From Acinetobacter phage Acba_15: a stretch of 60,424 bases of DNA. Position numbers and translations under genes: made by a program. Below are positions 1 to 11,177 of the stretch, piece after piece. The DNA is taken from sequence record OQ101257.1; one strand, given 5' to 3'. Under the pieces are notes generated by a model. The model saw nothing but the letters and a program-made list of their open reading frames with translations, searched no databases and was not told where the DNA came from. The first letter of the stretch is position 1, and the number at the start of each line of letters is the position of its first letter.

Positions 1-45
1 TAATTTATGATTAGGTTTAAATATGCTTTAATAGACAAAAGAAAA

Positions 46-70
46 CCCACCGTGGTGGTGGGTTCGAAGG
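46..70 (-). terminator. Intrinsic terminator immediately downstream of the restriction-modification gene. On the minus strand the hairpin cccaccaccacggtggg is followed by ttttctttt.
   Basis: Inverted repeat followed by a T-run on the minus strand, right after the stop codon at position 76. Confidence 0.45.
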
Positions 71-75
71 GGGGA

Positions 76-2358
76 TTAGTTGTAATTTTGAGGAAGTTCC
101 CATAATGCTTCTGTCTTTAGACGCAATTTTTTTTGATTTTCCTTGAGACTATTCTCAATTTCCTTTATTAGTTTATGTTGTTTTACTATTTGATCTTTAA
201 CCTCTTCAGGAGGATTCGGGATCTCAATATTCAAAAACATTTCATCAGGAATACTGCGTCGTCTCTCTACACTGCCTTGCATTTTACTTTTGTATATTTT
301 TCTTAGAGAATTAGATCTCAAAATCAAATCCAAATATTCTACATTAACTTCTCGTTTTAATCTAAAGATTTTGTATGCTGGGCTTACGGCAGCAGCATCG
401 TAATATTTTTGAAATCCTAGAACACCTTCATCTATAGGGAACCCCATTACAAGTTCATTTTTAAAAACCTTTTTATACCCAGAAATATCAGAACTTGCGA
501 CTCGTTTTTTAAATTTCTCATGCTGATCAATTAAGCCATGTTCCATAGTGATACTCATAATAGGTATATTTGTATCCTCTCCCACTTTGACTTTGCCAGA
601 CAAGGATAGGAGTTCTTTTAGTTTTATAGTTGGGAATTTTGATTTTATATGTGAATTACTATAGTGAGCATAATTATAAATATAATCATTGCTTCTGATT
701 AATTCTGGATTAACTTTTAAGAAACCTAATTCATTATAATATTTATCAAAGTCGCTCTTATTTAAATCAGCAAAATCTAAATTTTTTAAATCATTTTCGT
801 CAATTTTTCTACGGAAAGAATCTAAACTTAGGCCATCATTTGTCACATTGTAGTAAAAAACGTCAGAATTTGTTCTACCATTATGACAGTTGGTAAAGTA
901 GAGTATATTGGTTTTAACTTTTGCATATGGCAGAAAAACTTCTTTTGGAAGTGAAACTACTGCTTTTAGTTGGGCGTTTTCAAATAAATACTTCCTTACT
1001 GGAGCTAAAGCGGCTTTAAAAAGAAAGCCTTCAGGTACTACTAATGCCATTCGCCCTCCTTTTTTTGTTGCTTTAAAGCAATGTAGAACACATACTCCAT
1101 CACCATCGTTTTTAGCTAACTTATTCTCATATAAGTGAGAATAAGAAGTTTTTTGAGAAAATGGCATGTTGGTTATAACCACATCATATTCAGATTCAAT
1201 AGGGTTTTGAAGTGTGTCTATCTGGCAAATTCCACTATGCCCATCCCCATGCAGAATCATATTCATTTTTGCGAGTTTTGCATTTGAGGTAATTTCTCTT
1301 CCAAAAATAGTATTATGTTTAAGCTTGATTTCTTCACTACTATTGTTTGCAATTAAAGTGTTATCTTTTATATGATCAAATGCCTCTGTTAAAAAACCAC
1401 CTGTCCCACAAAAAGGGTCATAGATCTTTTCACCATATTTAGGGTTGACTAAGTTAACAATGGTTTTAGTTATGTGACGTGGAGTAAAATATTCTCCTAA
1501 GTCATTATTAGTTGCTGTAGCTTGCTGTAAGAAATACTCAAAAGCATCTCCTTTAATATCGGTATCTATTGATGAGAGTTTTAACTTATCCAACTCTTTG
1601 ATCATCTCTTTAACAGCAACAGGGTTGGTTAGCTGTAAATTTGTAAAAACAGAAGCACCATATTGTCTATCAATATCTTGTAGTATGTTATTAGTTGTAT
1701 TAATTAGCAAATCATTATCGAGACTTTTGAGAGAATTCCAAATACCTGTATTAGCATTCTCTGTATACAATTTTAAAAAAAGAATGTTTGCAAATTCTGA
1801 AAGCCTTTCTATACCAGCTCTTAAACCTTCACCTCTTAGTGAGTTATTTAACTTCTTGAAAACATTAATTAACTCTTTGCGAGAGACTAAAATTTCTTTA
1901 GGTGTAATATAAATACCATTTGTTTCCTGCAATATGAACTCTTTAGCTTCATTTACTCTTATTAATTCATTAACCTCATTTTCATCAATAAATAATGGTT
2001 TTTGGGTATACAAATGCCGTGTTTCGCAGAAACCATTATTCATTGCAAATATCAAAGGTGCATCAAGCATTTCAGCATATTCGGTTGCCTGATCCAGTGC
2101 TTTTGTTAAGCTTTTTCCACCTGATTTCGTTTCAATTACACCGATTGGCCGCTTATTTTGTGAATCGAAAAGAACATAATCGGGTCTTTTTTTACTTTTC
2201 TTGAGAAACTCATTATTAACAATTCTTAAGATATCTGATTCAAAAAAGACATTTTTGTTTGGATCTTGAATGTCCAAGATCCAGCCCTTGTTAATCAAAT
2301 TATTGTTAACAATAAAACGTGTATCTTGCTCAATATTAGACATATTGCATAATCCCAA
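76..2358 (-). CDS. Single-polypeptide (Type IIG-like) restriction-modification enzyme. It fuses an N-terminal PD-(D/E)xK nuclease, a gamma-class N6-adenine DNA methyltransferase and a C-terminal HsdS-like target-recognition domain.
   Basis: Uninterrupted 760-aa ORF. N-terminal PDYVLFD...IETK matches the PD-(D/E)xK nuclease motif. Central YFTPRHI ... DPFCGTGGFL matches methyltransferase motifs X and I, and TNMPFS is an NPPF-like motif IV. The C-terminal roughly 250 aa are HsdS-TRD-like. The gene is markedly more AT-rich than the surrounding phage genes. Confidence 0.65.
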   Translation of the reverse strand: MGLCNMSNIEQDTRFIVNNNLINKGWILDIQDPNKNVFFESDILRIVNNEFLKKSKKRPDYVLFDSQNKRPIGVIETKSGGKSLTKALDQATEYAEMLDAPLIFAMNNGFCETRHLYTQKPLFIDENEVNELIRVNEAKEFILQETNGIYITPKEILVSRKELINVFKKLNNSLRGEGLRAGIERLSEFANILFLKLYTENANTGIWNSLKSLDNDLLINTTNNILQDIDRQYGASVFTNLQLTNPVAVKEMIKELDKLKLSSIDTDIKGDAFEYFLQQATATNNDLGEYFTPRHITKTIVNLVNPKYGEKIYDPFCGTGGFLTEAFDHIKDNTLIANNSSEEIKLKHNTIFGREITSNAKLAKMNMILHGDGHSGICQIDTLQNPIESEYDVVITNMPFSQKTSYSHLYENKLAKNDGDGVCVLHCFKATKKGGRMALVVPEGFLFKAALAPVRKYLFENAQLKAVVSLPKEVFLPYAKVKTNILYFTNCHNGRTNSDVFYYNVTNDGLSLDSFRRKIDENDLKNLDFADLNKSDFDKYYNELGFLKVNPELIRSNDYIYNYAHYSNSHIKSKFPTIKLKELLSLSGKVKVGEDTNIPIMSITMEHGLIDQHEKFKKRVASSDISGYKKVFKNELVMGFPIDEGVLGFQKYYDAAAVSPAYKIFRLKREVNVEYLDLILRSNSLRKIYKSKMQGSVERRRSIPDEMFLNIEIPNPPEEVKDQIVKQHKLIKEIENSLKENQKKLRLKTEALWELPQNYN

Positions 2359-2363
2359 TATCT

Positions 2364-2692
2364 ACTATAAAAACTATTGGCAATCTACACATTACACACT
2401 AAAACATCAATAAATATTACTATCTAATAAGTGATATACCCCACATTTAAAAGACTGTACCGGGTTCACAGTTTATTAATCTTTTGTGTTATTAATTTTC
2501 TGGCCTAGCTTTCCTTCTTTTACCAACTGCACGACCTGCTCATTAGTAAGCACAGGAATAAAGACCTTATCGCCAATGTCTTTAGAAAGAATCTTTACCT
2601 CTTCAGCAGTCAGCACCAAAGCTTCACCATGTTTCGCAGCATCATTGATGCGAGCAATAATCTGGTTGATTGGTAGTTTTGAATTGTCCAAT
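2364..2692. repeat. Copy 1 of an about 325-bp direct repeat. Copy 2 is at 5560..5883 and is about 97% identical.
   Basis: Alignment by eye: ctataaaaactattggcaatctacacattacacactaaaacatcaataaat...gaattgtcca occurs at both places. Confidence 0.85.
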
Positions 2693-2697
2693 TCCAT
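2476..2697 (-). CDS. Small conserved protein of 73 aa, function unknown. It lies directly downstream of the cI-like repressor in the same orientation.
   Basis: ORF lying inside repeat copy 1. A near-identical paralog is at 5669..5884. No recognisable domain. Confidence 0.45.
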   Translation of the reverse strand: MELDNSKLPINQIIARINDAAKHGEALVLTAEEVKILSKDIGDKVFIPVLTNEQVVQLVKEGKLGQKINNTKD

Positions 2698-2706
2698 TCT
2701 CCTTTT

Positions 2707-3453
2707 TTAACCTGCACGCCAAAATTGGCGACCCATAACTTTAAAATTCAATCCATTTTGCTCCGTGACTTCACGATCTCTGTATTTAGGATTTAGGCTG
2801 TGCAGAATCAGTTTCCCGCCTTCTTCCTTGAAAATCTGCTTAATCATGCCTTCACCCTCAAAGTAAACAGCATAAATTTGACCATCAATAATGTCGGTTT
2901 GGGATATATCAATGCCAACCAAATCCCCATCCTCAATCTTGTCCGCCATACTGTCGCCTTTAGCCTTGATGATGCGCATGCAATCAGGATGAACATTTTT
3001 TTGTTTAAAAAAACTAGGTGGGAATGGCTGTTTTCCATTGATCACATCAAAGTGAAACTCTATAGATTCTCCTGTGCCACAAGAAAAACTTGCCTCTACC
3101 ACATCAATCCAGATAAATCCATCATCCCCACCATACTCAACTACTGACGGGCTTTGAATATCATTCACATCAAATGATGATTCATCTTTCTTGGATAGAC
3201 CGTGCTTATCCATAAATTCTTGCATGTTGAAGTTGGTTAAATTTTGTTTTTTCTTCCCGTTTAGAAGCCATCCGGCATCAACTTCTAAAAGTTCGGCCAA
3301 CTTATCCAAAGTCTCTTTGCCAATCTGTCCTTTTTTCCATTTAGAAGGCGCTTGAGGAGTCAGGCCAATCATTGTGGCAGCTTTAGACCATGATAATTTC
3401 TTTGCTTTCAGTGCTTCCTGAATGCGCTCAACCATTGTGCTCATAACTTTCAT
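2707..3453 (-). CDS. cI/LexA-like prophage repressor, with an XRE helix-turn-helix N-terminal domain and an S24 peptidase C-terminal domain.
   Basis: HTH segment MIGLTPQAPSKWKKGQ. C-terminal segment has AKGDSMADKIEDGDLV with the catalytic Ser, and a downstream Lys. Start chosen at MKVMSTMVER, which has an AAAGG Shine-Dalgarno-like sequence. Confidence 0.8.
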   Translation of the reverse strand: MKVMSTMVERIQEALKAKKLSWSKAATMIGLTPQAPSKWKKGQIGKETLDKLAELLEVDAGWLLNGKKKQNLTNFNMQEFMDKHGLSKKDESSFDVNDIQSPSVVEYGGDDGFIWIDVVEASFSCGTGESIEFHFDVINGKQPFPPSFFKQKNVHPDCMRIIKAKGDSMADKIEDGDLVGIDISQTDIIDGQIYAVYFEGEGMIKQIFKEEGGKLILHSLNPKYRDREVTEQNGLNFKVMGRQFWRAG

Positions 3454-3529
3454 CGCGTGAAACCTTTGGTTAAATTTTCGTATAAAAAATATAAAATTGT
3501 AAGCAACCATAGGTTGAAAATAATTTTAA

Positions 3530-3577
3530 CTCATGGTTTAATAAAAATATTAATTAGGTTTAAATAAGGTTTAAGAT
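3530..3577. promoter_or_regulatory. Divergent cI/cro promoter-operator region with repeated GGTTTAA motifs.
   Basis: Three copies of aGGTTTAA(a/g)(a/t)a lie in the 120-bp cI-cro intergenic region. The 14-mer ATTAGGTTTAAATA recurs at window positions 10..23. Confidence 0.35.
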
Positions 3578-3808
3578 ATGAATCCTATTCAACAAGCCAT
3601 TGATGCTGTTGGTGGGCGAACCAATGCAGCGTCATTACTTGGGATATCCTACGTTGCTGTAAGAAAGATGGCAGAGAAAGGTGTATTGCCACGTACTGAT
3701 TACACAGGTGAAACCAACTACGCACAGATTCTTGCTGAGCACAGTAACGGGAAAGTGACTCAAGAATGGCTACTCGATAAAGCAAATCCAAAACATTTAG
3801 CGGCATAA
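3578..3808 (+). CDS. Cro-like small helix-turn-helix DNA-binding protein.
   Basis: 76-aa ORF transcribed divergently from the repressor. Contains an HTH-like stretch ASLLGISYVAVRKM. Confidence 0.5.
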   Translation: MNPIQQAIDAVGGRTNAASLLGISYVAVRKMAEKGVLPRTDYTGETNYAQILAEHSNGKVTQEWLLDKANPKHLAA

Positions 3809-3818
3809 GGAAAGTTTT

Positions 3819-4085
3819 ATGAGCCTTGAAAAAAAATCTACGCATGTGCGTTTATCTCCCGAAATCCATGAACGAGCTAAAACACTCGCTTCTGTAAAAG
3901 AAAAAGACCTTGCCAGCTATTTGGCTTTCTTGCTTGAGAAAGAAATCGTAGGTGAGTGGCATGTCTTTAATTTACAAGCAAAAGCTTTTCAGCGCTTGGG
4001 ATTAGGCGCTTTAGTACGGGATATCTCTACTGAAATCAGCTTCGATGAGGAACCAGAAGGGATTAACGGGGATTTAGATAAATAA
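3819..4085 (+). CDS. Ribbon-helix-helix (Arc/CopG-like) protein in the position that cII occupies in lambda.
   Basis: N-terminal STHVRLSPEIHERAKTLA fits the beta-strand plus helix pattern of RHH proteins. A homolog is at 6982..7248. Confidence 0.4.
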   Translation: MSLEKKSTHVRLSPEIHERAKTLASVKEKDLASYLAFLLEKEIVGEWHVFNLQAKAFQRLGLGALVRDISTEISFDEEPEGINGDLDK

Positions 4086-4110
4086 AAAAGCCTGATGGAT
4101 GAGATCAGGC
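4083..4110 (-). terminator. Minus-strand intrinsic terminator overlapping the 3' end of the RHH gene. Candidate terminator of an OOP-like antisense RNA.
   Basis: Hairpin gcctgat...atcaggc. On the minus strand it is followed by a six-T run. The adjacent 55 nt are almost perfectly conserved at 7266..7322. Confidence 0.4.
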
Positions 4111-4180
4111 TTAGTGTTCAAACAAGGTGGATTAAATGAACTATTCAATATTAGCAGAAACAGTAGAGAAGGGGAACTAG

Positions 4181-4348
4181 ATGAGTAAAACCACTTTTAA
4201 ATTTATTCAGTGGTACGAATCTAAGTACCCTGAGTTTGTAAATCGATATGGAGCTTTAAAACGCTTATATGACTCTGATTTAGATAGTTTCTTCATTGAA
4301 GAAATTGATGAGCTGTATAAGGAATTTAAGCAAGGTGGTGTTGTATGA
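4181..4348 (+). CDS. Hypothetical small protein of 55 aa.
   Basis: ATG ORF MSKTTFKFIQWYESKYPEF...YGALKRLYDSDLDSFFIEEIDELYKEFKQ. A homologous ORF at 7443..7616 shares the YG.L.RLYD...FFIEEI..Y.EFK pattern. Confidence 0.35.
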   Translation: MSKTTFKFIQWYESKYPEFVNRYGALKRLYDSDLDSFFIEEIDELYKEFKQGGVV

Positions 4349-5238
4349 GCTTATACACCACAGGTCATCCGGTTGTAGACAAAATTGCCAGCCTCAATAT
4401 TGAAGGCAATGTCATTCCTGCTAATTGGTTTAATACTTTCAAATTGGAAAATGGGAAGCCTGATACAAATGCGGTCATTTTGCTTTCAGAAATTGTTTAT
4501 TGGCATCGTCCGACTATTGTCCGTGATGAAGATTCTGGGCATATCGTTTCGGTAAAGAAAAAATTCAAAGCTGATTTATTGCAACGCTCATATCAGAGTC
4601 TAGCAGATCAATTTGGGTTCTCAAGGAAGCAAGTTAAAGAAGCATTAGATCGTCTTGAAAAGTTCGGCGTGATCAAGCGTCATTTCCGCTCTGTAGATGT
4701 AAATGGTCAAAAACTTAGCAATGTTTTGTTCATTGAATTAGTTACCCATGTTCTCTTTGAAGCGACCACCCTCCTAACTTCTACGGTAGGACCCTCCTCA
4801 CTTGAAAGTCATGACCTCCCACCCTACAGGGAAGACCCTCCCCACCTGGAGGGTGACACATATACAGAGAATACTACAGAGATTACTACAGATAGTAAGT
4901 TAAGCACGGCTGAGCTTGAAAAAATCTTGAAAGGGAAGAAACCATGTGAAGCTCTTGTCGCTATCGGTTTAGATCTTGAGGTTGCTAAACGATTCAATGA
5001 ATACCGTAAGACCCTTAAAAAACCATTAACTCTTGATGCTGTGATCAAGCATTACCACGAAAGCTGCAATGCAGGGATTTCAACTAATGATGCAGCTCGT
5101 ATTGTTTTGAGTGAATCGTGGATTGGGTTTGCTAGTCGTTACAACTGGAAGCCAGCATTTGAAACTTTGAATGGTTCTGCACAACAACAAACACCAGCAG
5201 ATATGAAAAATGCTGATCTTAATTATGGAGATTGGTAA
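4345..5238 (+). CDS. Phage replication initiator, O-like replisome organiser, copy 1.
   Basis: 297 aa. Its position is directly upstream of a DnaB-type helicase. The C-terminal tail ...NYGDW is shared with the second initiator (...QYGDW). It contains internal iteron-like repeats. Confidence 0.55.
   Translation: MSLYTTGHPVVDKIASLNIEGNVIPANWFNTFKLENGKPDTNAVILLSEIVYWHRPTIVRDEDSGHIVSVKKKFKADLLQRSYQSLADQFGFSRKQVKEALDRLEKFGVIKRHFRSVDVNGQKLSNVLFIELVTHVLFEATTLLTSTVGPSSLESHDLPPYREDPPHLEGDTYTENTTEITTDSKLSTAELEKILKGKKPCEALVAIGLDLEVAKRFNEYRKTLKKPLTLDAVIKHYHESCNAGISTNDAARIVLSESWIGFASRYNWKPAFETLNGSAQQQTPADMKNADLNYGDW
4763..4858. repeat. Iteron-like direct repeats (GACCCTCC, four copies plus one inverted copy) inside initiator gene 1. 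Candidate replication origin.
   Basis: ccaccctcc, gaccctcct, gacctccca, gaccctccc and ggagggtga all fall within 95 bp. Confidence 0.4.
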
Positions 5239-5606
5239 TGAGTTCTGATATCCAAAATATTTCTATTGAGCAGAGTGTTCTTGTTGCACTCATGACAACA
5301 AGCAACTCACTTGAAGTAGTTGCAAACGATTTGACTGAGGAACATTTCTTCGCTGGACGACACAAAATCATTTATCGCGCCATTGTTGAGTTATCAAATG
5401 CTGATATGCCGTATGACGCAGTATTCGTTGGCAAGCATCTACAAGAAAGAAATCTGCTTAACGATATCGGCGGTGAAGAATATTTAATTCAACTTAATAG
5501 CGCTATTGGTAGTGTCCATCACCTTGAATACTTTGTCGCAGAATTAACTAAGTTAAACTATAAAAACTATTGGCAATCTACACATTACACACTAAAACAT
5601 CAATAA
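5232..5606 (+). pseudogene. Truncated DnaB-type helicase N-terminal fragment of 124 aa. It is cut at the boundary of repeat copy 2.
   Basis: Residues 1 to about 108 are roughly 85% identical to the N-terminus of the full helicase at 8356..9681. Homology ends at ...AELTKL and the frame runs into repeat sequence. Confidence 0.75.
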
Positions 5607-5883
5607 ATATTACTATCTAATAAGTGATATACCCCACATTTAAAAGACTGTGTCGGGTTCACAGTTTATTAATCTTTTGTGTTATTAATTTTCTGGCCTA
5701 GCTTTCCTTCTTTTACCAACTGCACGACCTGCTCATTAGTAAGCACAGGAATAAAGACTTTGTCGCCAATATCTTTAGAAAGAATCTTTACTTCTTCAGC
5801 GGTTAGCACCAAAGCTTCACCATGTTTCGCAGCATCATTGATGCGAGCAATAATCTGGTTGATTGGTCGTTTTGAATTGTCCA
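5560..5883. repeat. Copy 2 of the about 325-bp direct repeat.
   Basis: See 2364..2692. Confidence 0.85.
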
Positions 5884-5884
5884 T
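5669..5884 (-). CDS. Small conserved protein of 71 aa, paralog of 2476..2697.
   Basis: About 95% identical in amino-acid sequence to copy 1. It sits directly downstream of the second cI-like repressor. Confidence 0.45.
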   Translation of the reverse strand: MDNSKRPINQIIARINDAAKHGEALVLTAEEVKILSKDIGDKVFIPVLTNEQVVQLVKEGKLGQKINNTKD

Positions 5885-5898
5885 AAGTCTTCCTGTGA

Positions 5899-6681
5899 TT
5901 AATGCGAATAAGGATGTTCTTGTCTGTGCTGACTTGGTGGTACGATGTCAGTAATAGCTGTAATGCTTTCTACCTCATCCATTTCAAAGAAAAATCGCTC
6001 ACCACCATTCACAGAAAGCAAGCTTAAAACCCCGCCATTTATGCCAACAAATTCTTTAATTGTGCATCTTCCATCCTTCAAGCATACCTGAACAAACTCA
6101 TTCGGCACGAGTTCCGCATCTGGATCACAAACCACATACCATCCATTACGGATAGCTGGAAACATTGAGTCGCCAGTGCCTTTAATACCATAGGCTCTTG
6201 GTCCTGCTGAGTGAGTTGGAACATACCCATCTCCAGCATTTCCATCGTATCCCATATCTGTGAAATACCCATCCATACCCATCTTTGAATAAGCTTTGAC
6301 GGGAACGTATCTTTTTTGAATAGGGAATGGTTTATCTGATGTTTGAACAAACTTAACAGCATCTTCACTATCTGGAATGTTGTACTTCTGCTTAAAGGCT
6401 TCAATATCAAGAACATTTAATTGTGCACCACCACCATCCAGCTGTGTGGCAATCATTTTATTACCTTGTCCAGCTAGCCAATCTTTAGAAACTCCTAAAA
6501 ACTCAGCCGCTTTAACTAAATTTGACCCCTCCAACTCTTGGGTTGGGCCATTTACCCACAACCCAACATTAGCCCTGCTCACGCCTGCAAATCTAGCCAG
6601 CTCAGTATTTTTGAATCTTTTACCTGTCACAGATTCATAGTGCTTTATAGCTAAAGACATTCGCTCTTGAAGAGTACTCAT
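5899..6681 (-). CDS. Second cI/LexA-like repressor, with an XRE HTH and an S24 peptidase domain.
   Basis: HTH segment LARFAGVSRANVGLWVNG. C-terminal segment has IKGTGDSMFPAIRNG. Its sequence is divergent from repressor 1. Confidence 0.8.
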   Translation of the reverse strand: MSTLQERMSLAIKHYESVTGKRFKNTELARFAGVSRANVGLWVNGPTQELEGSNLVKAAEFLGVSKDWLAGQGNKMIATQLDGGGAQLNVLDIEAFKQKYNIPDSEDAVKFVQTSDKPFPIQKRYVPVKAYSKMGMDGYFTDMGYDGNAGDGYVPTHSAGPRAYGIKGTGDSMFPAIRNGWYVVCDPDAELVPNEFVQVCLKDGRCTIKEFVGINGGVLSLLSVNGGERFFFEMDEVESITAITDIVPPSQHRQEHPYSH

Positions 6682-6719
6682 AGTGTAAATCTCATGGCTA
6701 TTGCCATAAACAAAATGTA

Positions 6720-6790
6720 AAGGAATCTTAACTTTTCATTTGTAAAGCTTGCTAAACTTCTAACAGTAAAGTAGACTTGACAAAGTAAAG
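6720..6790. promoter_or_regulatory. Divergent promoter-operator region of immunity module 2, with repeated GTAAAG motifs.
   Basis: aatgtaaagga, ttgtaaagc, cagtaaagtagacttgacaaagtaaagttg. The motifs differ from the module 1 operator motifs. Confidence 0.35.
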
Positions 6791-6808
6791 TTGAAATTGG
6801 AATTAATT

Positions 6809-6985
6809 ATGCGAATTGAGATGAAAACATCTGATGTTTTGGCTCGGTTCAATGCGCCAAAAATCGCAAAACTTTTAAAAATTAGCCGTCAAGCAGTTTA
6901 CCAGTGGGGTGAATTTGTACCCGAAGCTGCTGCTTTTAAATTGCTTGAACAAGAACCAACACTACCAGTTAAGAGGGTTTCATGA
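6809..6985 (+). CDS. Cro-like small HTH protein of module 2.
   Basis: HTH-like segment IAKLLKISRQAVYQWGE. Start chosen at the first ATG, because the ORF-track start is a TTG. Confidence 0.5.
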   Translation: MRIEMKTSDVLARFNAPKIAKLLKISRQAVYQWGEFVPEAAAFKLLEQEPTLPVKRVS

Positions 6986-7248
6986 GCCTTGAAAAAAAAT
7001 CTACGCATGTGCGTTTATCTCCCGAAATCCATGAACGAGCAAAAATACTTGCTCATGTTAAAGAAAAGGATCTCGCGGCCTATCTAGGTTTTCTTATTGA
7101 AAAAGAGATAGTTGGCGAGTGGCATGTATTCAATATACAAGCAAAATCTTTCGCGCGTTTGGGAATGTCGGCTTTAGTACGGGAGTTAAGTACAGAAGTC
7201 AGCTTTTCAGAGGGATCGGAAGGGATTAACGGGAATTTAGACAAATAA
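6982..7248 (+). CDS. Ribbon-helix-helix protein, paralog of 3819..4085.
   Basis: About 75% identical in amino-acid sequence to 3819..4085. Confidence 0.4.
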   Translation: MSLEKKSTHVRLSPEIHERAKILAHVKEKDLAAYLGFLIEKEIVGEWHVFNIQAKSFARLGMSALVRELSTEVSFSEGSEGINGNLDK

Positions 7249-7273
7249 AAAGCCTGATCTCGTAAATCAGGCT
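7245..7273 (-). terminator. Minus-strand intrinsic terminator, module 2 copy of the OOP-like element.
   Basis: Hairpin agcctgat...atcaggct, followed on the minus strand by a T-run. Confidence 0.4.
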
Positions 7274-7288
7274 TAGTGTTCAAACAAG

Positions 7289-7480
7289 GTGGACCAAATG
7301 AACTATTCAATATTAGCAGACATTGAACTAAATCGGAAGATTAGTTTGTTTCAAAAAGCGGTTGAGGCTTATGCAATAGAACGCAGTTTAAAAAACTCGG
7401 TTGCTGTAGCTGAGGCTAAAAGTAACTTGGAGCGTCATTACTATGAATCCTACAGCTTTGCGGTTCATAAGGGAGTATGA
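7289..7480 (+). CDS. Hypothetical protein of 63 aa.
   Basis: ORF only. Confidence 0.3.
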   Translation: MDQMNYSILADIELNRKISLFQKAVEAYAIERSLKNSVAVAEAKSNLERHYYESYSFAVHKGV

Positions 7481-7616
7481 GCATGAAGTTTATGAAGGTG
7501 CGAAATATGCACGCCAGTATGGTGATCTTCAAAGGCTTTACGATGCTTCAAGTGATGAATTCTTCATTGAAGAAATCAACGATGCTTATGAAGAGTTTAA
7601 GAGGAGCTTGGTATGA
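7443..7616 (+). CDS. Hypothetical small protein of 57 aa, homolog of 4181..4348.
   Basis: MNPTALRFIREYEHEVYEGAKYARQYGDLQRLYDASSDEFFIEEINDAYEEFKRSLV. Its stop overlaps the initiator ATG. Confidence 0.3.
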   Translation: MNPTALRFIREYEHEVYEGAKYARQYGDLQRLYDASSDEFFIEEINDAYEEFKRSLV

Positions 7617-8356
7617 CTAGTTTTATTTCTAATGCATTCCAGATTCCTAATGACCTAATAGATAACGGACATATGGCTAAGATGAAGGGTGCAGCTTTGC
7701 CTTGTTATCTTCTCATTGTTCGTAAAACGCGTGGCTGGAATAAACAAGCAGATAGCATCAGCCTATCTCAGTTTGTAAAAGCAACTGGATACAACAAGGA
7801 TACTGTACAAAAAGGCCTATTAATTTTGGAAGAGATGGGTGTAATTATCCGCCTTGAAACTGACAAACAAATTAATGAATGGTCTCTAACTGACCAGATA
7901 ATTACCACTGAAAACCATACTAAAAATTCGCCTAGCGAAAATTTAGCTATGCTAAAAAATAGTACGGAACCATACGAAAATTTAGTATCAAACCATACTA
8001 AAAATTCGCCACACAATAACAATAATAAAAACAAAGAAAAACAAGGGGTGGGTTACTCAGAAAACTTTGAGAAGTTCTGGTCTGCATATCCAACTTGTAA
8101 ACGTAAATCAGACAAGTCTGGCACTTATAAAACTTTCACAAAGCATGAAGGAAGTTTTGCGATTGAAACACTTCTTTCAATTCTTGAAAAACAAAAATCT
8201 GATGTCTCTTGGACAAAGCAGGATGGTGAGTTCATTCCATCACCTAGCACTTGGTTAAACCAAAAACAATGGGAAAACGAGTATTGGTTTCAGGTCAACA
8301 GCTCTGTGGTAGCTCCTGATTTCTCTAATGCCCAATTGCAATATGGAGACTGGTAA
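7613..8356 (+). CDS. Phage replication initiator, O-like, copy 2.
   Basis: Position before the helicase, shared C-terminal YGDW tail, and internal iterons. Confidence 0.55.
   Translation: MTSFISNAFQIPNDLIDNGHMAKMKGAALPCYLLIVRKTRGWNKQADSISLSQFVKATGYNKDTVQKGLLILEEMGVIIRLETDKQINEWSLTDQIITTENHTKNSPSENLAMLKNSTEPYENLVSNHTKNSPHNNNNKNKEKQGVGYSENFEKFWSAYPTCKRKSDKSGTYKTFTKHEGSFAIETLLSILEKQKSDVSWTKQDGEFIPSPSTWLNQKQWENEYWFQVNSSVVAPDFSNAQLQYGDW
7910..8010. repeat. Iteron-like repeats inside initiator gene 2. Candidate origin.
   Basis: aaccatactaaaaattcgcc occurs twice, at 7913 and 7991. gaaaatttag occurs twice, at 7936 and 7975. Confidence 0.4.
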
Positions 8357-9681
8357 TGAGTACAAACATTCAAAATATGACAATTGAGCAGAGTGTGCTA
8401 GTCGCATTGATGACAGTGAGCCATTCCCTAGAGGTTGTCGCAAATGATCTTACCGAAGAACATTTTTACGCTGGTCGTCACAAGATTATTTACAAGGCAA
8501 TTGTTGAGCTTGCTAATGCTGATAAGCCATATGACTCAGTATTTGTCTGCAAGCATCTACAAGAAAGAAATCTGCTTAACGATATCGGCGGTGAAGAATA
8601 TTTAATTCAACTTAATAGCGCTATTGGTAGTGTCCATCACCTTGAATACTTTGTCGCAGAATTAACTAAGTTAAAAAACCATCGTGAAGTTGAAGGTATT
8701 GGTCTCTCGATTGCAGAGTGCGCTAAAGATTTGACCATTACTGATGTTTACTTAGCTGCTGAGAATTTATTTAGTTCGTCTAGTAATTCAATTGAGCAAA
8801 AGCAAACAGGCTTTGATTTTAACCAAGCTTTAGAAAAGACACTTGAGCGATTTGAGAAAAAGATTGCCCAGAAGGAACAAAAGGGCTTCATAGGTGTCCA
8901 GTTCAATATTCCTCATCTTGATAACCTTCTTGGCACAATCGAGAAAGGACATTTTTGCGTTATTGGTGGTCGTCCGGGTAGTGGCAAGTCAACACTCGCG
9001 CAAATGTGTGCAATGCAAACTGCTAAGCGCTACAACATGCCTGTTTTATTTATCTCTGCTGAGATGGACACACCAACCCTAACCAACCGCATGATCTCAG
9101 CATTAGGGCATATCCCATATAACAATCTGCACAATGGGGAAATTTATGACGGGATGTTTGAAAAGCTTACTGGCACGATAGCTCAGTTCCGCAACCTTCC
9201 AATTTTTATTGAAGAGAAGCAGAAGCCAACAATTTCTGAAATCCAAAGCTATGCGCGTAAAGCAAAACGCAAATATAAGGCTCTAGGCTGCATCATTGTG
9301 GACTACTTGGGCTTAATTCGTGACCCATCTAAAAAAGACCGTGTTCAGGAAGTTGCATCAATTAGCCGTGATTTAAAAGCCATGGCTAAAGAGTTTGATT
9401 GTCCAGTAATTGCATTGGCTCAACTTAACCGTGGAGCAGAAGGACACAAGCCAGTAGCAAGTGATCTTAAGGATTCTGGACAGATTGAACAGGATGCAGA
9501 CCAAATCATCATGGTTCATCCAATCCTCGAAAAAGAGACTAATGCGCCAACTGGTGTAACCGAGTTAATTATTGCCAAAAACCGTCATGGCAAGCGTGGA
9601 TCTGTGAATGTTCAAGACCGTTTAGATATTTGCCGTTTCGTTGGGATGTCATTCCCAGTGGAAGAGAGAGGTGCGGCGTGA
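8356..9681 (+). CDS. DnaB-family replicative DNA helicase.
   Basis: Walker A motif GGRPGSGKST, Walker B-like segment IIVDYLGLI, and a characteristic DnaB N-terminal domain. Confidence 0.85.
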   Translation: MSTNIQNMTIEQSVLVALMTVSHSLEVVANDLTEEHFYAGRHKIIYKAIVELANADKPYDSVFVCKHLQERNLLNDIGGEEYLIQLNSAIGSVHHLEYFVAELTKLKNHREVEGIGLSIAECAKDLTITDVYLAAENLFSSSSNSIEQKQTGFDFNQALEKTLERFEKKIAQKEQKGFIGVQFNIPHLDNLLGTIEKGHFCVIGGRPGSGKSTLAQMCAMQTAKRYNMPVLFISAEMDTPTLTNRMISALGHIPYNNLHNGEIYDGMFEKLTGTIAQFRNLPIFIEEKQKPTISEIQSYARKAKRKYKALGCIIVDYLGLIRDPSKKDRVQEVASISRDLKAMAKEFDCPVIALAQLNRGAEGHKPVASDLKDSGQIEQDADQIIMVHPILEKETNAPTGVTELIIAKNRHGKRGSVNVQDRLDICRFVGMSFPVEERGAA

Positions 9682-9929
9682 ATCCAAAACAAAGAGTAAT
9701 CGCGTTCCAAAACATTTTTGACATTTTGTTGTTCGCAACGCATGCGACTGAGCCTTTCACAATGAAGGATTTACGTGACTATGTGTTAGATGCACCTAAC
9801 AACACTATTCAATGCTATGTCCAAGAGCTAATCAAAAGTGGGTACCTAGAAAAAGATTCATATGCAACCTACAAGGCTACGCAATACGCAAAAGACATCC
9901 TGAATGTTAAAGGGGAGCTGAAAGCATGA
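9678..9929 (+). CDS. Hypothetical protein.
   Basis: GTG start overlapping the helicase stop codon. Confidence 0.35.
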   Translation: MNPKQRVIAFQNIFDILLFATHATEPFTMKDLRDYVLDAPNNTIQCYVQELIKSGYLEKDSYATYKATQYAKDILNVKGELKA

Positions 9930-10103
9930 ACGAATTTGTAGATTACACCTCAATGATGAAGCTGCGCAGAGCGTACAACCTCGGTACTCGCAATAAAGAA
10001 ACAAGAGCAGCAGCGAACCTCTATGAGAAATTAAGAAAGCTGAAAATGCTAGACCAGCTTAAGCAGGAAGCCATGACTAAACGTTACAAGGAGGCGGTAT
10101 GAA
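9927..10103 (+). CDS. Hypothetical basic protein of 58 aa.
   Basis: ATG ORF with translational coupling. Confidence 0.3.
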
Positions 10104-10407
10104 ACCAGAACAGTTTATTCGTGAGTTTGGGCCTAACACTTTCAGAATATCAATGTCATTTGTCAACACTGCTAAGTATTTGGTGGTTCATGAAGGTGAA
10201 ATTGATTTTACAGATGAAATCAAGCCTCACCATGGCGAACGTGTATTTGAGCGTGATGTGGTCAATCGCCTCATAGAGTCTTTGGATTTGGTCAAGAAGC
10301 TTGGTGGCTTACAAGGTGCAAAAGCATATGTTCCAGATGGTTACAAATCAGATCGTTTGAAGCAAGCAATCAAAGACCACGAATCAATATACGGAGGCGG
10401 GGAATGA
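10099..10407 (+). CDS. Hypothetical protein.
   Basis: ORF only. Confidence 0.35.
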   Translation: MKPEQFIREFGPNTFRISMSFVNTAKYLVVHEGEIDFTDEIKPHHGERVFERDVVNRLIESLDLVKKLGGLQGAKAYVPDGYKSDRLKQAIKDHESIYGGGE

Positions 10408-10577
10408 ATAGCATCTGGTTTACGTTGTTCTTCTGCTTATGCTGCTTTATTTGGGGCTTTGCGTATTCGTATGGCAGTTGGGTTGAGAAAGCAACTAATG
10501 GTCAGCCTTTTGAAGTGAAAGGCAAGGTTTACAAAATCATTGAATTGGATGTTGTGGAAAAAGGAGCCAGCCATGAG
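10404..10577 (+). CDS. Small hydrophobic protein of 57 aa.
   Basis: N-terminal predicted transmembrane segment IWFTLFFCLCCFIWGF. Confidence 0.3.
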
Positions 10578-10854
10578 TGAGTTTAAAGTCGGGGATTACA
10601 TTGTAATTGATCAAAAATATGACAAGACCTTCATGCCCGTTTTGCAAATTATTTCAGAAGGTAAGAACTATTTCTATTGCAATGATGGGCAAGTACATAA
10701 ATCGCAAATGGAACAATGGCGCAAAGCTGAGCCAGAAGAAATCGCAGCAGGCCACCGCATTGATAACCCCTCGGATTCGAGGGAATTGGAAACCCTAGAC
10801 AAACCAGAAAACCACATCAGCCCGCTGTGTAAAACGATAGGTGATCAATCATGA
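10572..10854 (+). CDS. Hypothetical protein.
   Basis: Start set at MSEFKV. Confidence 0.35.
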
Positions 10855-11177
10855 CATTTGATGAAGCAATACAGCAGCACAAAGACAACTTAACAAAGAA
10901 CCTTTCGGAGTTTGGTGAAGGGCATCGCCTTAATCGCTTGCACAAGGAAATTGATAGCAATGCGGCTGATTATGAATATTACTTCAATGCTGGTCAGCAG
11001 GCACAGCAAGCGAAAGTGGAGGAGCTGCAAACCCTATATACCCAACAAGGAATAAACATGTTGAAGATGCAAAAGCGGGTGGATGCAGTAATTATCGAAA
11101 TTGAAAATATGTATTTATCAGGTGCCATTGGTTTTGACACGGTTAAGAAGTTAGAGCAAGCGCTCAAGGGGGAATAA
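10851..11177 (+). CDS. Hypothetical protein.
   Basis: ORF with overlapping start and stop. Confidence 0.35.
   Translation: MTFDEAIQQHKDNLTKNLSEFGEGHRLNRLHKEIDSNAADYEYYFNAGQQAQQAKVEELQTLYTQQGINMLKMQKRVDAVIIEIENMYLSGAIGFDTVKKLEQALKGE

What the first reader, a model, noticed from the sequence alone, without database searches (positions are those of the whole stretch)
76..3453. Repressor-proximal small ORF plus a Type IIG-like restriction-modification gene form a candidate lysogen-expressed defence cassette
Directly downstream of cI, and in the same orientation, lies a conserved 71-73-aa ORF. After it comes an AT-rich single-chain restriction-modification enzyme with its own terminator at 46..70. 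This is the position of rexAB in lambda and sieB in P22, where lysogen-expressed exclusion genes sit.

The 14-mer ATTAGGTTTAAATA at positions 10..23 duplicates the operator-like motif in the cI-cro region at 3553..3566. This suggests the restriction-modification cassette was inserted between cI and an OL/pL-like element.

The small ORF is retained next to both repressors, so it is probably functional. It could be an exclusion factor, a controller of the restriction-modification gene, or an anti-toxin. It has no recognisable fold.
Basis: partly seen in the sequence, partly recalled or inferred. Interest (0 to 1): 0.7.

Follow-up and report, generated by a model that had tools for sequence, protein, structure and literature searches.

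The report
Restriction enzyme in prophage defence slot
Next to the repressor gene of this Acinetobacter temperate phage lies a swappable slot that here carries a one-protein restriction-modification enzyme, an arrangement already known from other phages, while the small gene beside it belongs to the repressor and not to the enzyme.

Summary
On the minus strand the order is: cI repressor (2707..3510), an 8-kDa ORF (2476..2697), a 755-aa restriction-modification fusion (76..2343), then a terminator (65..43). The 14-mer at 10..23 is a real left-operator element. The window is circularly permuted, so the 14-mer lies upstream of the leftward early operon.

Across 95 related Acinetobacter loci, the stretch between the small ORF and the left operator is hypervariable, with 28 first-gene families. 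These include this enzyme, BstA, PD-Lambda-5, PDC-S42, PDC-S13 and HicAB. The "lysogen-expressed defence cassette at the rexAB position" reading is therefore well supported by anatomy. Transcription and enzyme activity remain untested.

The enzyme has invariant nuclease (PD..ExK) and methylase (DPFCGTGG, NMPF) motifs. Public phage records already annotate it as a putative restriction-modification protein.

The small ORF is not a controller or antitoxin of the enzyme, because it accompanies every cargo type. It always follows an HTH+S24 repressor and is under strong purifying selection (dN/dS 0.02-0.05). It is confined to Acinetobacter and has no recognisable fold. Its function is unknown; my best guess is a repressor accessory factor.

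Verdict: an ordinary member of a known kind, with one moderately interesting orphan gene.

The parts
43..65 (-). Intrinsic terminator closing the cI / small ORF / cargo transcription unit (GAACCCACC-ACCAC-GGTGGGTTT followed by TCTTTTGTC). It insulates the unit from pL.
   Evidence: Found by the terminator scan. The same CCCACC-N5-GGTGGGTTTTCTTTT element, with variable loop bases, lies 432-2708 nt downstream of the small ORF behind unrelated cargos in L002, L003, L007, L010, L016, L019, L021 and others.
1..42 (-). Right-hand part of the left operator / early-left promoter region (OL/pL), containing the 14-mer at 10..23. It continues across the window ends into 60299..60424.
   Evidence: Window end plus start is 100% identical over 520 nt to contiguous Acba_23 DNA. 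GGTTTAA-type motifs cluster here and in OR-A. The shared 14-mer is reached by 5 of 5000 shuffles. OL/OR covariation with the repressor allele is shown.
60299..60424 (-). Left-hand part of the OL/pL region, upstream of the first leftward early gene (pentapeptide-repeat protein, 59615..60298). It contains two TGGTTTAAT sites and a candidate promoter, TTGCTT-N17-TTTAAT.
   Evidence: Sequence reading, motif search, and Pfam on the leftward operon showing Pentapeptide, AAA_24 and integrase. The promoter is inferred from sequence only.
76..2343 (-). 755-aa single-chain restriction-modification-specificity fusion (Type IIG-like). It has an N-terminal PD-(D/E)xK nuclease (HSDR_N), an HsdM-like gamma N6-adenine methyltransferase, and one HsdS-like target-recognition domain.
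   Evidence: Pfam gives N6_Mtase 4.8e-54 and HSDR_N 9e-8. PADLOC gives MTase_I 6e-76 and Specificity_I 8e-27 on residues 577-745. P54-D55, E71-x-K73, DPFCGTGG and N392-x-P-F are invariant in 36 homologues of 44-70% identity. The AF2 model (pLDDT 79.5) aligns over its full length to BpuSI 3s1s, DrdV 7lo5 and BsaXI 8w0p.
2344..2453 (-). AT-rich leader of the RM gene. It is part of the RM cassette and contains a weak candidate promoter (TTGATG-N17-TAGATT).
   Evidence: The stretch is duplicated at 97% in repeat D1, 2364-2663 = 5557-5856. Homology with non-RM cargo loci ends just after the hairpin. The promoter is only a sequence reading (8 of 12 consensus positions) and falls below the scan threshold.
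2454..2472 (-). Short hairpin immediately after the small-ORF stop (ACTGTG-AACCCGG-TACAGT, then CTTTT). It is a weak terminator or RNA 3' stabiliser and marks the boundary of the cargo slot.
   Evidence: The copy at 5665..5647 was picked up by the terminator scan. Hairpins of three different sequences follow the small ORF in most related loci, and in L002, L003, L007 and L008 the cargo start codon follows about 25 nt later.
2476..2697 (-). Conserved 73-aa (8.0 kDa, pI 5.8) three-helix protein encoded 9 nt after the cI stop, with an AAGGAG ribosome-binding site. Its function is unknown and it is linked to the repressor.
   Evidence: ORF call and phrog_2719. It has 112 clusters at 90% identity, and every one that carries a source's name is from Acinetobacter, apart from one partial record labelled Bacillus altitudinis. 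An exhaustive profile search found 43 representatives, all 77 aa or shorter. AF2 predicts three helices. dN/dS is 0.02-0.05. It always follows an S24 repressor.
2707..3510 (-). cI-A repressor (HTH_3 + Peptidase_S24).
   Evidence: Pfam and phrog_4.
3511..3577 (.). OR-A / pRM / pR region with GGTTTAA-type repeats, including the second copy of the 14-mer (3553..3566). The candidate pR is TTGAAA-N17-TTTAAT.
5669..5884 (-). Second allele of the small ORF (71 aa), next to cI-B (5899..6681). It differs from copy A by dS 0.14 and dN 0.006.

Best explanation
Window 1..3577, together with the window's last 126 bases, is the lysogeny side of the immunity region of a lambdoid (Vieuvirus-like) Acinetobacter baumannii temperate phage.

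Proposed transcription unit. Leftward transcription from pRM in the cI-cro spacer reads cI-A and then the tightly coupled 8-kDa small ORF. It then passes a weak hairpin and enters an exchangeable cargo slot. A strong conserved terminator ends the unit just before OL/pL.

The cargo. In this phage the slot holds a 755-aa Type IIG-like enzyme that combines nuclease, N6-adenine methyltransferase and one target-recognition domain in one chain. In a lysogen it would methylate its recognition site on the chromosome and prophage, and cut incoming unmethylated DNA. That protects the lysogen from heterologous phages, while progeny of the prophage leave already modified. The AT-rich leader may also give the RM gene a promoter of its own.

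The small protein. It is not part of the RM cassette. It is a conserved companion of the S24-type repressor. I propose, with a probability of about 0.3, that it is an accessory factor of lysogeny maintenance acting on the repressor. This is a functional analogy to GIL01 gp7 with LexA and to DdrR with UmuDAb.

Shown here: gene order, domains, intact catalytic motifs, terminators, operator covariation, cargo variability, and selection on the small ORF.

Inferred, not shown: expression in the lysogen, restriction and methylation activity, and the role of the small protein.
For: Architecture:
- The ORFs and terminators are in place.
- The window is circular: its end plus start match Acba_23 contiguously at 100% over 520 nt.
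- The leftward operon beyond OL encodes a pentapeptide-repeat protein, an AAA_24 recombination ATPase and an integrase.

Operator:
- The exact 14-mer is present twice and is reached by 5 of 5000 shuffles.
- In 12 loci with different repressors, each cI-cro spacer shares its own 11-21-nt motif with the region just beyond the cargo.
- vB_AbaSI_5 carries the same RM and terminator but cI-B. Its OL has GTAAAG motifs matching OR-B instead of the 14-mer.

Cargo slot:
- 95 loci yield 28 first-cargo families, which reassort freely with the repressor clusters.
- Among them are BstA at 1e-113, PDC-S42 at 1e-85 and PDC-S13 at 1.4e-78.
- PD-Lambda-5_B scores 6.7e-122 next to an AAA_21 ATPase, and HicA/HicB are also found.
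- In several loci the cargo ATG lies about 25 nt after the hairpin. That leaves no room for a promoter, so the cargo must be co-transcribed with cI.

RM enzyme:
- Domain hits come from Pfam and PADLOC.
- The catalytic motifs are invariant.
- The fold matches Type IIG, IIL and IIB fusion enzymes.
- The protein is 99.7-100% identical in 33 phage records that carry different repressors.
- In Acinetobacter it forms a single 90% cluster of 847 members, and the next relatives are about 70% identical in Yersinia and Proteus.
- Its GC content is low, which fits recent import followed by spread as a cassette.

Literature:
- The cI-to-N interval is a known mosaic hotspot that holds rexAB and bstA, and bstA is highly expressed in lysogens (PMC8585504).
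Against: - I found no transcript data for this locus, so expression in the lysogen is inferred from gene order and terminators only.
- A hairpin followed by CTTTT lies between the small ORF and the RM gene and could stop part of the pRM transcript. The candidate RM promoter matches only 8 of 12 consensus positions.
- No methylation motif or restriction phenotype has been reported for this enzyme in the papers I could search.
- Because 33 of 49 related phage records carry the identical allele, it cannot discriminate among them.
- The proposed repressor-accessory role of the small protein has no direct support. No interaction was tested, there is no fold match, and it is not detectably related to DdrR.
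Confidence: 0.72

Rival explanations
1. The 755-aa protein works only as a DNA methyltransferase for the phage's own benefit. It would protect progeny DNA from host restriction (an orphan or anti-restriction methylase, DarB-like) and would not restrict incoming DNA.
For: Several GenBank records call it 'N-6 DNA methylase', 'type I restriction enzyme M protein' or 'defense against restriction protein B'. There is a weak PHROG hit to DarB-like antirestriction, E 2.3e-5, on the methylase core. Phage-borne orphan methylases are common.
Against: - The N-terminal PD..ExK residues (P54, D55, E71, K73) are invariant across 36 homologues down to 44% identity. This would not be expected for a dead nuclease domain.
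- The full-length fold matches R-M fusion enzymes BpuSI, DrdV and BsaXI.
- The DarB hit covers only about 100 residues of a 4647-position profile.
- The gene sits in the lysogeny-side slot that holds bona fide defence systems in relatives. A separate SAM methylase is encoded in the early-left operon.
Confidence: 0.12
2. The small ORF and the RM gene form one functional two-gene system. The small protein would control RM expression (C-protein-like) or neutralise its toxicity (antitoxin-like).
For: The two genes are adjacent and co-oriented. 32 of 49 phage records that have the small ORF also carry the RM next to it.
Against: - 74 of 95 loci with the small ORF carry a different cargo, across 28 first-cargo families, and none of 15 genomic loci from other Acinetobacter species has the RM.
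- Copy B in this window has no RM after it.
- RM homologues at 44-70% identity are found in other bacteria such as Yersinia, Proteus, Spirosoma and Sporanaerobacter, whereas every named member of the small-ORF family is from Acinetobacter.
- No helix-turn-helix is detected in the small protein.
- Single-chain R-M enzymes do not generally need a controller (established knowledge of Type IIG enzymes).
Confidence: 0.04
3. The small protein is itself an exclusion or host-modulating factor expressed from the prophage. For example it might block a receptor, a pilus or DNA entry, in the way small prophage proteins such as Tip or Aqs1 do in Pseudomonas. In that case it would not be a partner of the repressor.
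For: It lies in the lysogeny operon, is small and acidic-neutral, is genus-restricted and is strongly conserved. Genus restriction fits a host-specific target. The Tip and Aqs1 analogy is from my own knowledge and was not tested.
Against: It has no signal peptide or transmembrane segment (GRAVY -0.21). Exclusion genes are usually variable accessory genes, whereas this one is the constant element beside a variable slot and is present with every repressor allele examined.
Confidence: 0.2
4. The RM gene is transcribed only from its own promoter in the 2344..2453 leader. The hairpin at 2472..2454 terminates the cI operon, so RM expression is independent of the repressor promoter and perhaps not specific to lysogeny.
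For: The intergenic leader is 133 nt long, with a hairpin plus CTTTT and a TTGATG-N17-TAGATT candidate. The leader travels with the RM cassette.
Against: The hairpin is short (6 bp with one G-U, about -9 kcal/mol for the local fold) and its U-tract is only four residues. The same hairpin precedes cargos that start about 25 nt later and cannot have their own promoter.
Confidence: 0.25

Closest known systems
Type IIG / IIC single-chain restriction-modification enzymes (solved example: RM.BpuSI, PDB 3s1s; also DrdV 7lo5 and the RM subunit of BsaXI 8w0p)
   Same: One polypeptide with an N-terminal PD-(D/E)xK nuclease, a helical linker, a gamma-class N6-adenine methyltransferase (DPFCGTGG, NMPF) and a C-terminal target-recognition domain. 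The AF2 model aligns over its full length to BpuSI and DrdV.
   Different: Sequence identity to the solved enzymes is only 12-19%. By sequence, the methylase and recognition domains are closer to Type I HsdM/HsdS. At 755 aa it is shorter than BpuSI (878 aa). The recognition site, cleavage position and AdoMet dependence are unknown.
rexAB of phage lambda and bstA of Salmonella prophage BTP1 (defence genes encoded just downstream of cI)
   Same: The position is the same, between cI and OL/pL and co-oriented with cI. Published work describes this interval as a mosaic hotspot (PMC8585504). A BstA homologue (PADLOC 1e-113) occupies this very slot in a related Acinetobacter locus, L035.
   Different: The mechanism differs: rexAB and bstA cause abortive infection, whereas this cargo restricts and modifies DNA. 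In the Acinetobacter phages a conserved small gene separates cI from the slot. Lysogenic expression is shown for rexAB and bstA but not for this gene.
Defence hotspots of P2-like prophages and P4-like satellites (Rousset et al. 2022, PMC9122126)
   Same: A fixed position in a temperate phage genome, flanked by conserved sequence, that carries many alternative anti-phage systems. Here there are 28 first-cargo families in 95 loci.
   Different: The phage lineage and genomic position are different. This slot lies inside the immunity region, bounded by a hairpin and a conserved terminator. Most cargos are still uncharacterised.
Small co-factors of LexA-family (S24) repressors: GIL01 gp7 with LexA, and Acinetobacter DdrR with UmuDAb
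   Same: They are small (about 50-80 aa) proteins without a DNA-binding motif and are genetically tied to an S24 repressor. DdrR, like this family, is restricted to Acinetobacter (PMC7273328, PMC11332147).
   Different: There is no detectable sequence relationship. ddrR is chromosomal and divergently transcribed from umuDAb, whereas this gene is phage-borne and lies downstream of cI. No interaction has been tested. This is an analogy only.

Membership tests
Type IIG (single-chain, combined R-M) restriction enzymes | Nuclease and methyltransferase domains in one polypeptide | tested here: met
   HSDR_N on residues 22-96 and N6_Mtase on residues 266-569 of the same 755-760-aa ORF. One continuous AF2 model was obtained.
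Type IIG (single-chain, combined R-M) restriction enzymes | Intact catalytic residues of the PD-(D/E)xK nuclease and of the gamma-class N6-adenine methyltransferase (motif I FxGxG, motif IV NPPF/Y-like) | tested here: met
   P54-D55, E71-x-K73, DPFCGTGG (309-316) and N392-M-P-F395 are invariant in 36 homologues.
Type IIG (single-chain, combined R-M) restriction enzymes | Own target-recognition domain, with no separate HsdS or HsdR partner genes | tested here: met
   PADLOC Specificity_I on residues 577-745. The neighbouring features are the terminator and the small ORF, and no hsdR or hsdS is nearby.
Type IIG (single-chain, combined R-M) restriction enzymes | AdoMet-stimulated cleavage at a fixed distance from an asymmetric site; methylation of that site | not testable with these tools
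   This needs biochemistry or a methylome. No report was found in the searchable literature.
Lysogen-expressed defence genes of the cI-pL interval (rexAB / bstA type of arrangement) | Located between cI and OL/pL and co-oriented with cI | tested here: met
   The gene order is established. OL is identified by covariation with the repressor allele.
Lysogen-expressed defence genes of the cI-pL interval (rexAB / bstA type of arrangement) | Transcribed in the prophage state | not testable with these tools
   Inferred only from operon anatomy. No transcriptome could be mapped to this locus: the ATCC 17978 data in PMC3978071 could not be assigned with confidence.
Lysogen-expressed defence genes of the cI-pL interval (rexAB / bstA type of arrangement) | Protects the lysogen against superinfecting phage | not tested
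   This requires plaque assays.
C-protein (controller) / antitoxin partner of an RM system, considered for the small ORF | Co-occurs specifically with the RM gene it controls | tested here: not met
   74 of 95 loci carry the small ORF with non-RM cargo. None of the 15 genomic loci has the RM.
C-protein (controller) / antitoxin partner of an RM system, considered for the small ORF | Helix-turn-helix DNA-binding fold | tested here: not met
DdrR family (Acinetobacter co-repressor of UmuDAb), considered for the small ORF | Sequence homology to DdrR | tested here: inconclusive
   No DdrR sequence was available for a direct comparison. Indirectly, the exhaustive profile search returned only 43 clusters. 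The 10 clusters inspected have 1-10 members, whereas DdrR is in virtually all Acinetobacter genomes (PMC7273328). A detectable relationship is therefore unlikely.
DdrR family (Acinetobacter co-repressor of UmuDAb), considered for the small ORF | Divergently transcribed from umuDAb on the chromosome | tested here: not met
   In every locus examined the gene lies downstream of, and co-oriented with, a prophage cI.

The most novel reading that the evidence does not exclude
The 8-kDa three-helix protein would be a previously unrecognised, genus-specific partner of S24-type prophage repressors. It would bind the conserved C-terminal domain of many different cI alleles. Through that it would tune RecA-dependent cleavage or operator occupancy, or couple cI transcription to read-through into the defence slot. 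That would make it a phage-borne functional counterpart of DdrR and gp7, and the fixed anchor of a defence hotspot in Acinetobacter prophages.
Probability: 0.2. Interest if true: 0.6.

Novelty: new member of a known kind. Interest (0 to 1): 0.38.

Why it matters
Acinetobacter baumannii is a priority target for phage therapy, and most sequenced Vieuvirus-like prophages carry this locus.

- An identical prophage-borne restriction enzyme is present in 33 of 49 related phage records and in a cluster of 847 protein sequences. It would be a widespread and easily screened barrier to therapeutic phages and to DNA uptake.
- The slot that carries it is a compact, well-delimited place to look for new defence genes. 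About 20 of its 28 cargo families have no known function.
- The constant small gene next to the repressor is an untested candidate regulator of lysogeny in a genus whose DNA-damage response is already known to use unusual small co-repressors.

None of this changes current concepts. It extends them to a clinically relevant phage group.

Tried and rejected
- **Small ORF as RM controller or antitoxin.** Rejected on co-occurrence.
- **DarB-like or Type I M-subunit annotation of the RM.** Rejected. The DarB hit is a short stretch of the methylase core. The protein has its own nuclease and recognition domains and no hsdR or hsdS neighbours.
- **MADS MAD2 or BREX PglX membership.** NCBIfam scores are far below cut-off: 119 against 720 bits, and 35 against 500 bits.
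- **Search for relatives outside Acinetobacter or fused to larger proteins.** None were found.
- **Rfam scan of 1..7500.** No RNA family at E<=0.1.
- **Direct DdrR comparison.** No DdrR sequence could be obtained. The Pavlin et al. 2022 paper (PMC8923225) is not held, and the held papers print no sequence.
- **Mapping the locus onto the ATCC 17978 mitomycin transcriptome (PMC3978071) to test lysogenic expression.** The gene order of CP14 does not match well enough to assign locus tags.
- **Literature search for a functional test of this RM or a methylome motif.** Nothing was found.
- **Correlation between small-ORF and cI divergence.** It is weak for the C-terminal domain (rho 0.23) and stronger for the N-terminal domain (rho 0.42). 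It is confounded by linkage, so it was not used as evidence.

Full report
**What is in the sequence**

On the minus strand, the window's left end carries these features in order:
- an HTH+Peptidase_S24 repressor, cI-A (2707..3510);
- after a 9-nt gap containing an AAGGAG ribosome-binding site, a 73-aa ORF (2476..2697);
- a short hairpin (2472..2454);
- a 133-nt AT-rich leader;
- a 755-aa ORF (76..2343 from ATG; 760 aa if the upstream TTG at 2358 is used);
- a clean intrinsic terminator (65..43, followed by TCTTTTGTC).

The large ORF is 28-34% GC against 39-43% for the neighbouring phage genes. The only correction is small: the terminator coordinates are 65..43, not 46..70.

**Origin and topology**

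The window is a temperate Acinetobacter baumannii siphovirus of the Vieuvirus type. Positions 1-5883 are 98-99.8% identical to phages Acba_23, Aclw_8, PhabP_R1 and 5W.

The window is a circular permutation. Its last 400 nt joined to its first 120 nt match contiguous Acba_23 DNA at 100%. Positions 1..42 are therefore continuous with 60299..60424.

Together these stretches form the region upstream of a leftward operon. That operon begins with a pentapeptide-repeat protein and continues through an AAA_24 recombination ATPase and a SAM methylase to the integrase. This is the arrangement expected for an OL/pL region in a lambdoid phage.

**The 14-mer is an operator element**

- ATTAGGTTTAAATA occurs exactly twice in 60 kb, once in the cI-cro spacer and once in this OL region.
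- Only 5 of 5000 dinucleotide-preserving shuffles of the OL region share 14 nt or more with the spacer.
- Two further 12-mers are shared, and GGTTTAA-type sites cluster in both regions.

The stronger argument is comparative. In 12 related loci with different repressor alleles, each cI-cro spacer shares its own 11-21-nt motif with the DNA just beyond the cargo. Examples are:

| Loci | Shared motif |
|---|---|
| L002, L009 | TTTCCGATATT |
| L003, L007, L008 | TAGGAATACCTA |
| L019 | ACCTATTAGGTAAA |
| L021 | TTAAAGCATACTTTAATAAAT |

A natural control is also available. Phage vB_AbaSI_5 has the identical RM gene and terminator, but its repressor is cI-B (261/261 identical to the window's second repressor). 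At the place of the 14-mer it has GTAAAG/CTTTAC motifs that match its own OR.

Homology between RM-bearing phages of different immunity starts at about window position 22, right at the edge of the operator. The RM cassette thus lies inside the immunity region, between cI and OL. This is the position of rexAB in lambda.

**The large ORF**

- Pfam finds N6_Mtase (4.8e-54) and the HsdR N-terminal nuclease domain (9e-8).
- PADLOC adds an HsdS-like specificity domain on residues 577-745.
- In an alignment with 35 homologues of 44-70% identity, the nuclease motif P54-D55...E71-x-K73, the AdoMet motif DPFCGTGG and the catalytic N-x-P-F are all invariant.
- An AF2 model (pLDDT 79.5) aligns over its full length to the Type IIG enzyme BpuSI, the Type IIL enzyme DrdV and the R-M subunit of BsaXI. 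The methylase core is closest to Type I HsdM.

It belongs to a very large family of 740-800-aa fusion proteins found across bacteria (2976 hits at E<=1e-30).

In Acinetobacter there is essentially one allele. It is 99.7-100% identical in 33 phage records that carry different repressors, and it forms one 90% cluster of 847 sequences. The nearest relatives are about 70% identical, in Yersinia and Proteus. Together with the low GC content, this indicates a recent import that has spread as a cassette.

The annotations 'Type I M protein' and 'DarB' in some records are not tenable. The protein has its own nuclease and recognition domains and no hsdR or hsdS neighbours. The DarB hit is a short stretch of the methylase core.

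**The slot**

I collected 95 loci that encode the small ORF: 80 from IMG/VR, 11 from genomes of other Acinetobacter species, and 4 phage records. In each I took the first gene downstream of the small ORF. These genes fall into 28 families at 40% identity and reassort freely with the repressor clusters.

| Cargo | Example locus | Evidence |
|---|---|---|
| This RM | 21 of 95 loci | |
| 333-aa protein plus a small membrane protein | 21 of 95 loci (e.g. L002) | |
| BstA | L035 | PADLOC 1e-113 |
| PDC-S42 | L028 | 1e-85 |
| PDC-S13 | L065 | 1.4e-78 |
| PD-Lambda-5 (methylase 6.7e-122, next to an AAA_21 ATPase) | L021 | |
| HicA/HicB | L009 | |
| M78-peptidase/HTH protein (RmrA-like) | L053 | |
| DUF3800 | L019 | |
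| About 20 families without any match | various | |

The slot has conserved borders.
- On the cI side are the small ORF and a hairpin directly after its stop codon. Three different hairpin sequences are seen in different lineages.
- On the OL side, many loci have the terminator CCCACC-N5-GGTGGGTTTTCTTTT with variable loop bases.

In several loci the cargo start codon, with its own Shine-Dalgarno sequence, follows the hairpin by only about 25 nt. Those cargos must be co-transcribed with cI.

This is the same logic as the published cI-to-N hotspot that holds rexAB and bstA, and bstA is highly transcribed in lysogens (PMC8585504). The 'lysogen-expressed defence cassette' reading is thus well supported by anatomy and comparison. 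No transcript or activity data exist for this gene in the literature I could search. The 133-nt leader with a hairpin and a weak promoter-like match leaves open how much of its expression comes from pRM.

**The small ORF**

It is a real gene:
- It has 112 clusters at 90% identity.
- dN/dS is 0.02-0.05 in unsaturated comparisons.
- Its median pairwise identity is 63%, while the adjacent repressors share a median of 25%.
- In all 12 cases checked, the upstream gene is an S24 repressor, with varied HTH domains.

The family is confined to Acinetobacter. It consists only of stand-alone proteins of 77 aa or fewer. It is predicted to form three helices (pLDDT 83.5) and has no significant structural or profile match.

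Because it accompanies every cargo type, it cannot be a dedicated controller or antitoxin of the RM.

What it does is unknown. Its invariable linkage to S24 repressors, and its restriction to a genus that already uses a small co-repressor (DdrR) with the S24 protein UmuDAb, suggest a repressor accessory role. The phage precedent of GIL01 gp7 acting on LexA points the same way (PMC7273328, PMC11332147, PMC10808703). I rate this at about 0.3. It is not detectably homologous to DdrR (indirect evidence).

Two alternatives remain:
- It could be an exclusion or host-modulating factor (about 0.2).
- It could have a role in read-through into the slot.

**Verdict**

The RM gene is an ordinary, already-annotated Type IIG-like enzyme sitting in a known kind of prophage defence hotspot.

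Two things are new here. The first is the delimitation of that hotspot in Acinetobacter phages: its borders, 28 cargo families, and operators that co-vary with the repressor. The second is the recognition that the small ORF is a constant, strongly selected companion of the repressor and not part of the cassette. Overall interest is modest.

Noticed in passing
window 2364..9681: The window holds two complete immunity modules in tandem.
- Module A: small ORF-A, cI-A, OR-A, cro-A, a cII-like gene, an O-like gene at 4345..5238, and a dnaB cut after about 108 codons at 5556.
- Module B: from 5557, small ORF-B, cI-B, OR-B with four GTAAAG repeats, cro-B, a Phage_rep_O gene at 7613..8356, and a full dnaB at 8356..9681.

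The junction has at most 1-3 nt of microhomology. The two small-ORF copies differ by dS 0.14, so this is a join of two different phages and not a recent duplication. OL carries only A-type operators, so cI-B would control pR-B only. Such a lysogen should be immune to both A-type and B-type phages.
   Followed up: partly
window 2364..2460, compared with L001 (Aclw_8), L022/L023 (Acba_1), L025 (Acba_16): Four structural variants meet within the same 100-nt stretch, in phages from one laboratory collection (PMC9866556).
- Aclw_8 has module A only.
- Acba_1 equals the window minus 2364..5556, so it pairs cI-B with an A-type OL.
- Acba_16 equals the window minus 2460..11046, so it has no repressor, O or dnaB.
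- The window itself has both modules.

This could be a real recombination hotspot, or an effect of assembling mixed populations. It was not resolved.
   Followed up: partly
window 59615..60298 (-), repeats at about 59840..60170: The first gene of the leftward early operon encodes a 227-aa pentapeptide-repeat protein (Pfam 3e-36). It is built from about 15-nt tandem DNA repeats (GGCATAGCTAAGGTT / GGCATCGCGAAGGTC). The repeat array appears longer in Acba_23. Pentapeptide-repeat proteins can mimic DNA, so an anti-restriction or anti-defence role as the first pL gene is conceivable.
   Followed up: no
L013 8222..8431: In one Acinetobacter MAG prophage the small ORF is followed, 3 nt later, by a diverged paralogue of itself (69 aa, MSSVQLMNQIIEKLNKAADLNQELTLSKEEV...). 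After that come a 93-aa ORF and a ClpP-like SDH-type protease.
   Followed up: no
L002 5267..6663, L003 5268..6780 and 19 further loci: The commonest non-RM cargo (21 of 95 loci) is a pair: a 333-335-aa protein and a 130-167-aa predicted membrane protein. Neither has a PADLOC hit, and Pfam gives only a sub-threshold LapA match. The pair is a candidate new defence or exclusion system in the Ab105-2phi and Ab105-3phi type of prophage.
   Followed up: partly
window 4088..4112 and 7250..7274: A conserved hairpin (AAGCCTGAT...ATCAGGCTT followed by T-rich sequence) lies right after the cII-like/Arc-like gene in both immunity modules. It is probably an early-right terminator (tR1-like), which implies that antitermination or read-through control operates on the rightward operon.
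   Followed up: no
window 41264..51733: A 3489-aa ORF lies in the tail region. It is unusually large and is presumably a host-specificity or tail-fibre protein. It was not examined.
   Followed up: no
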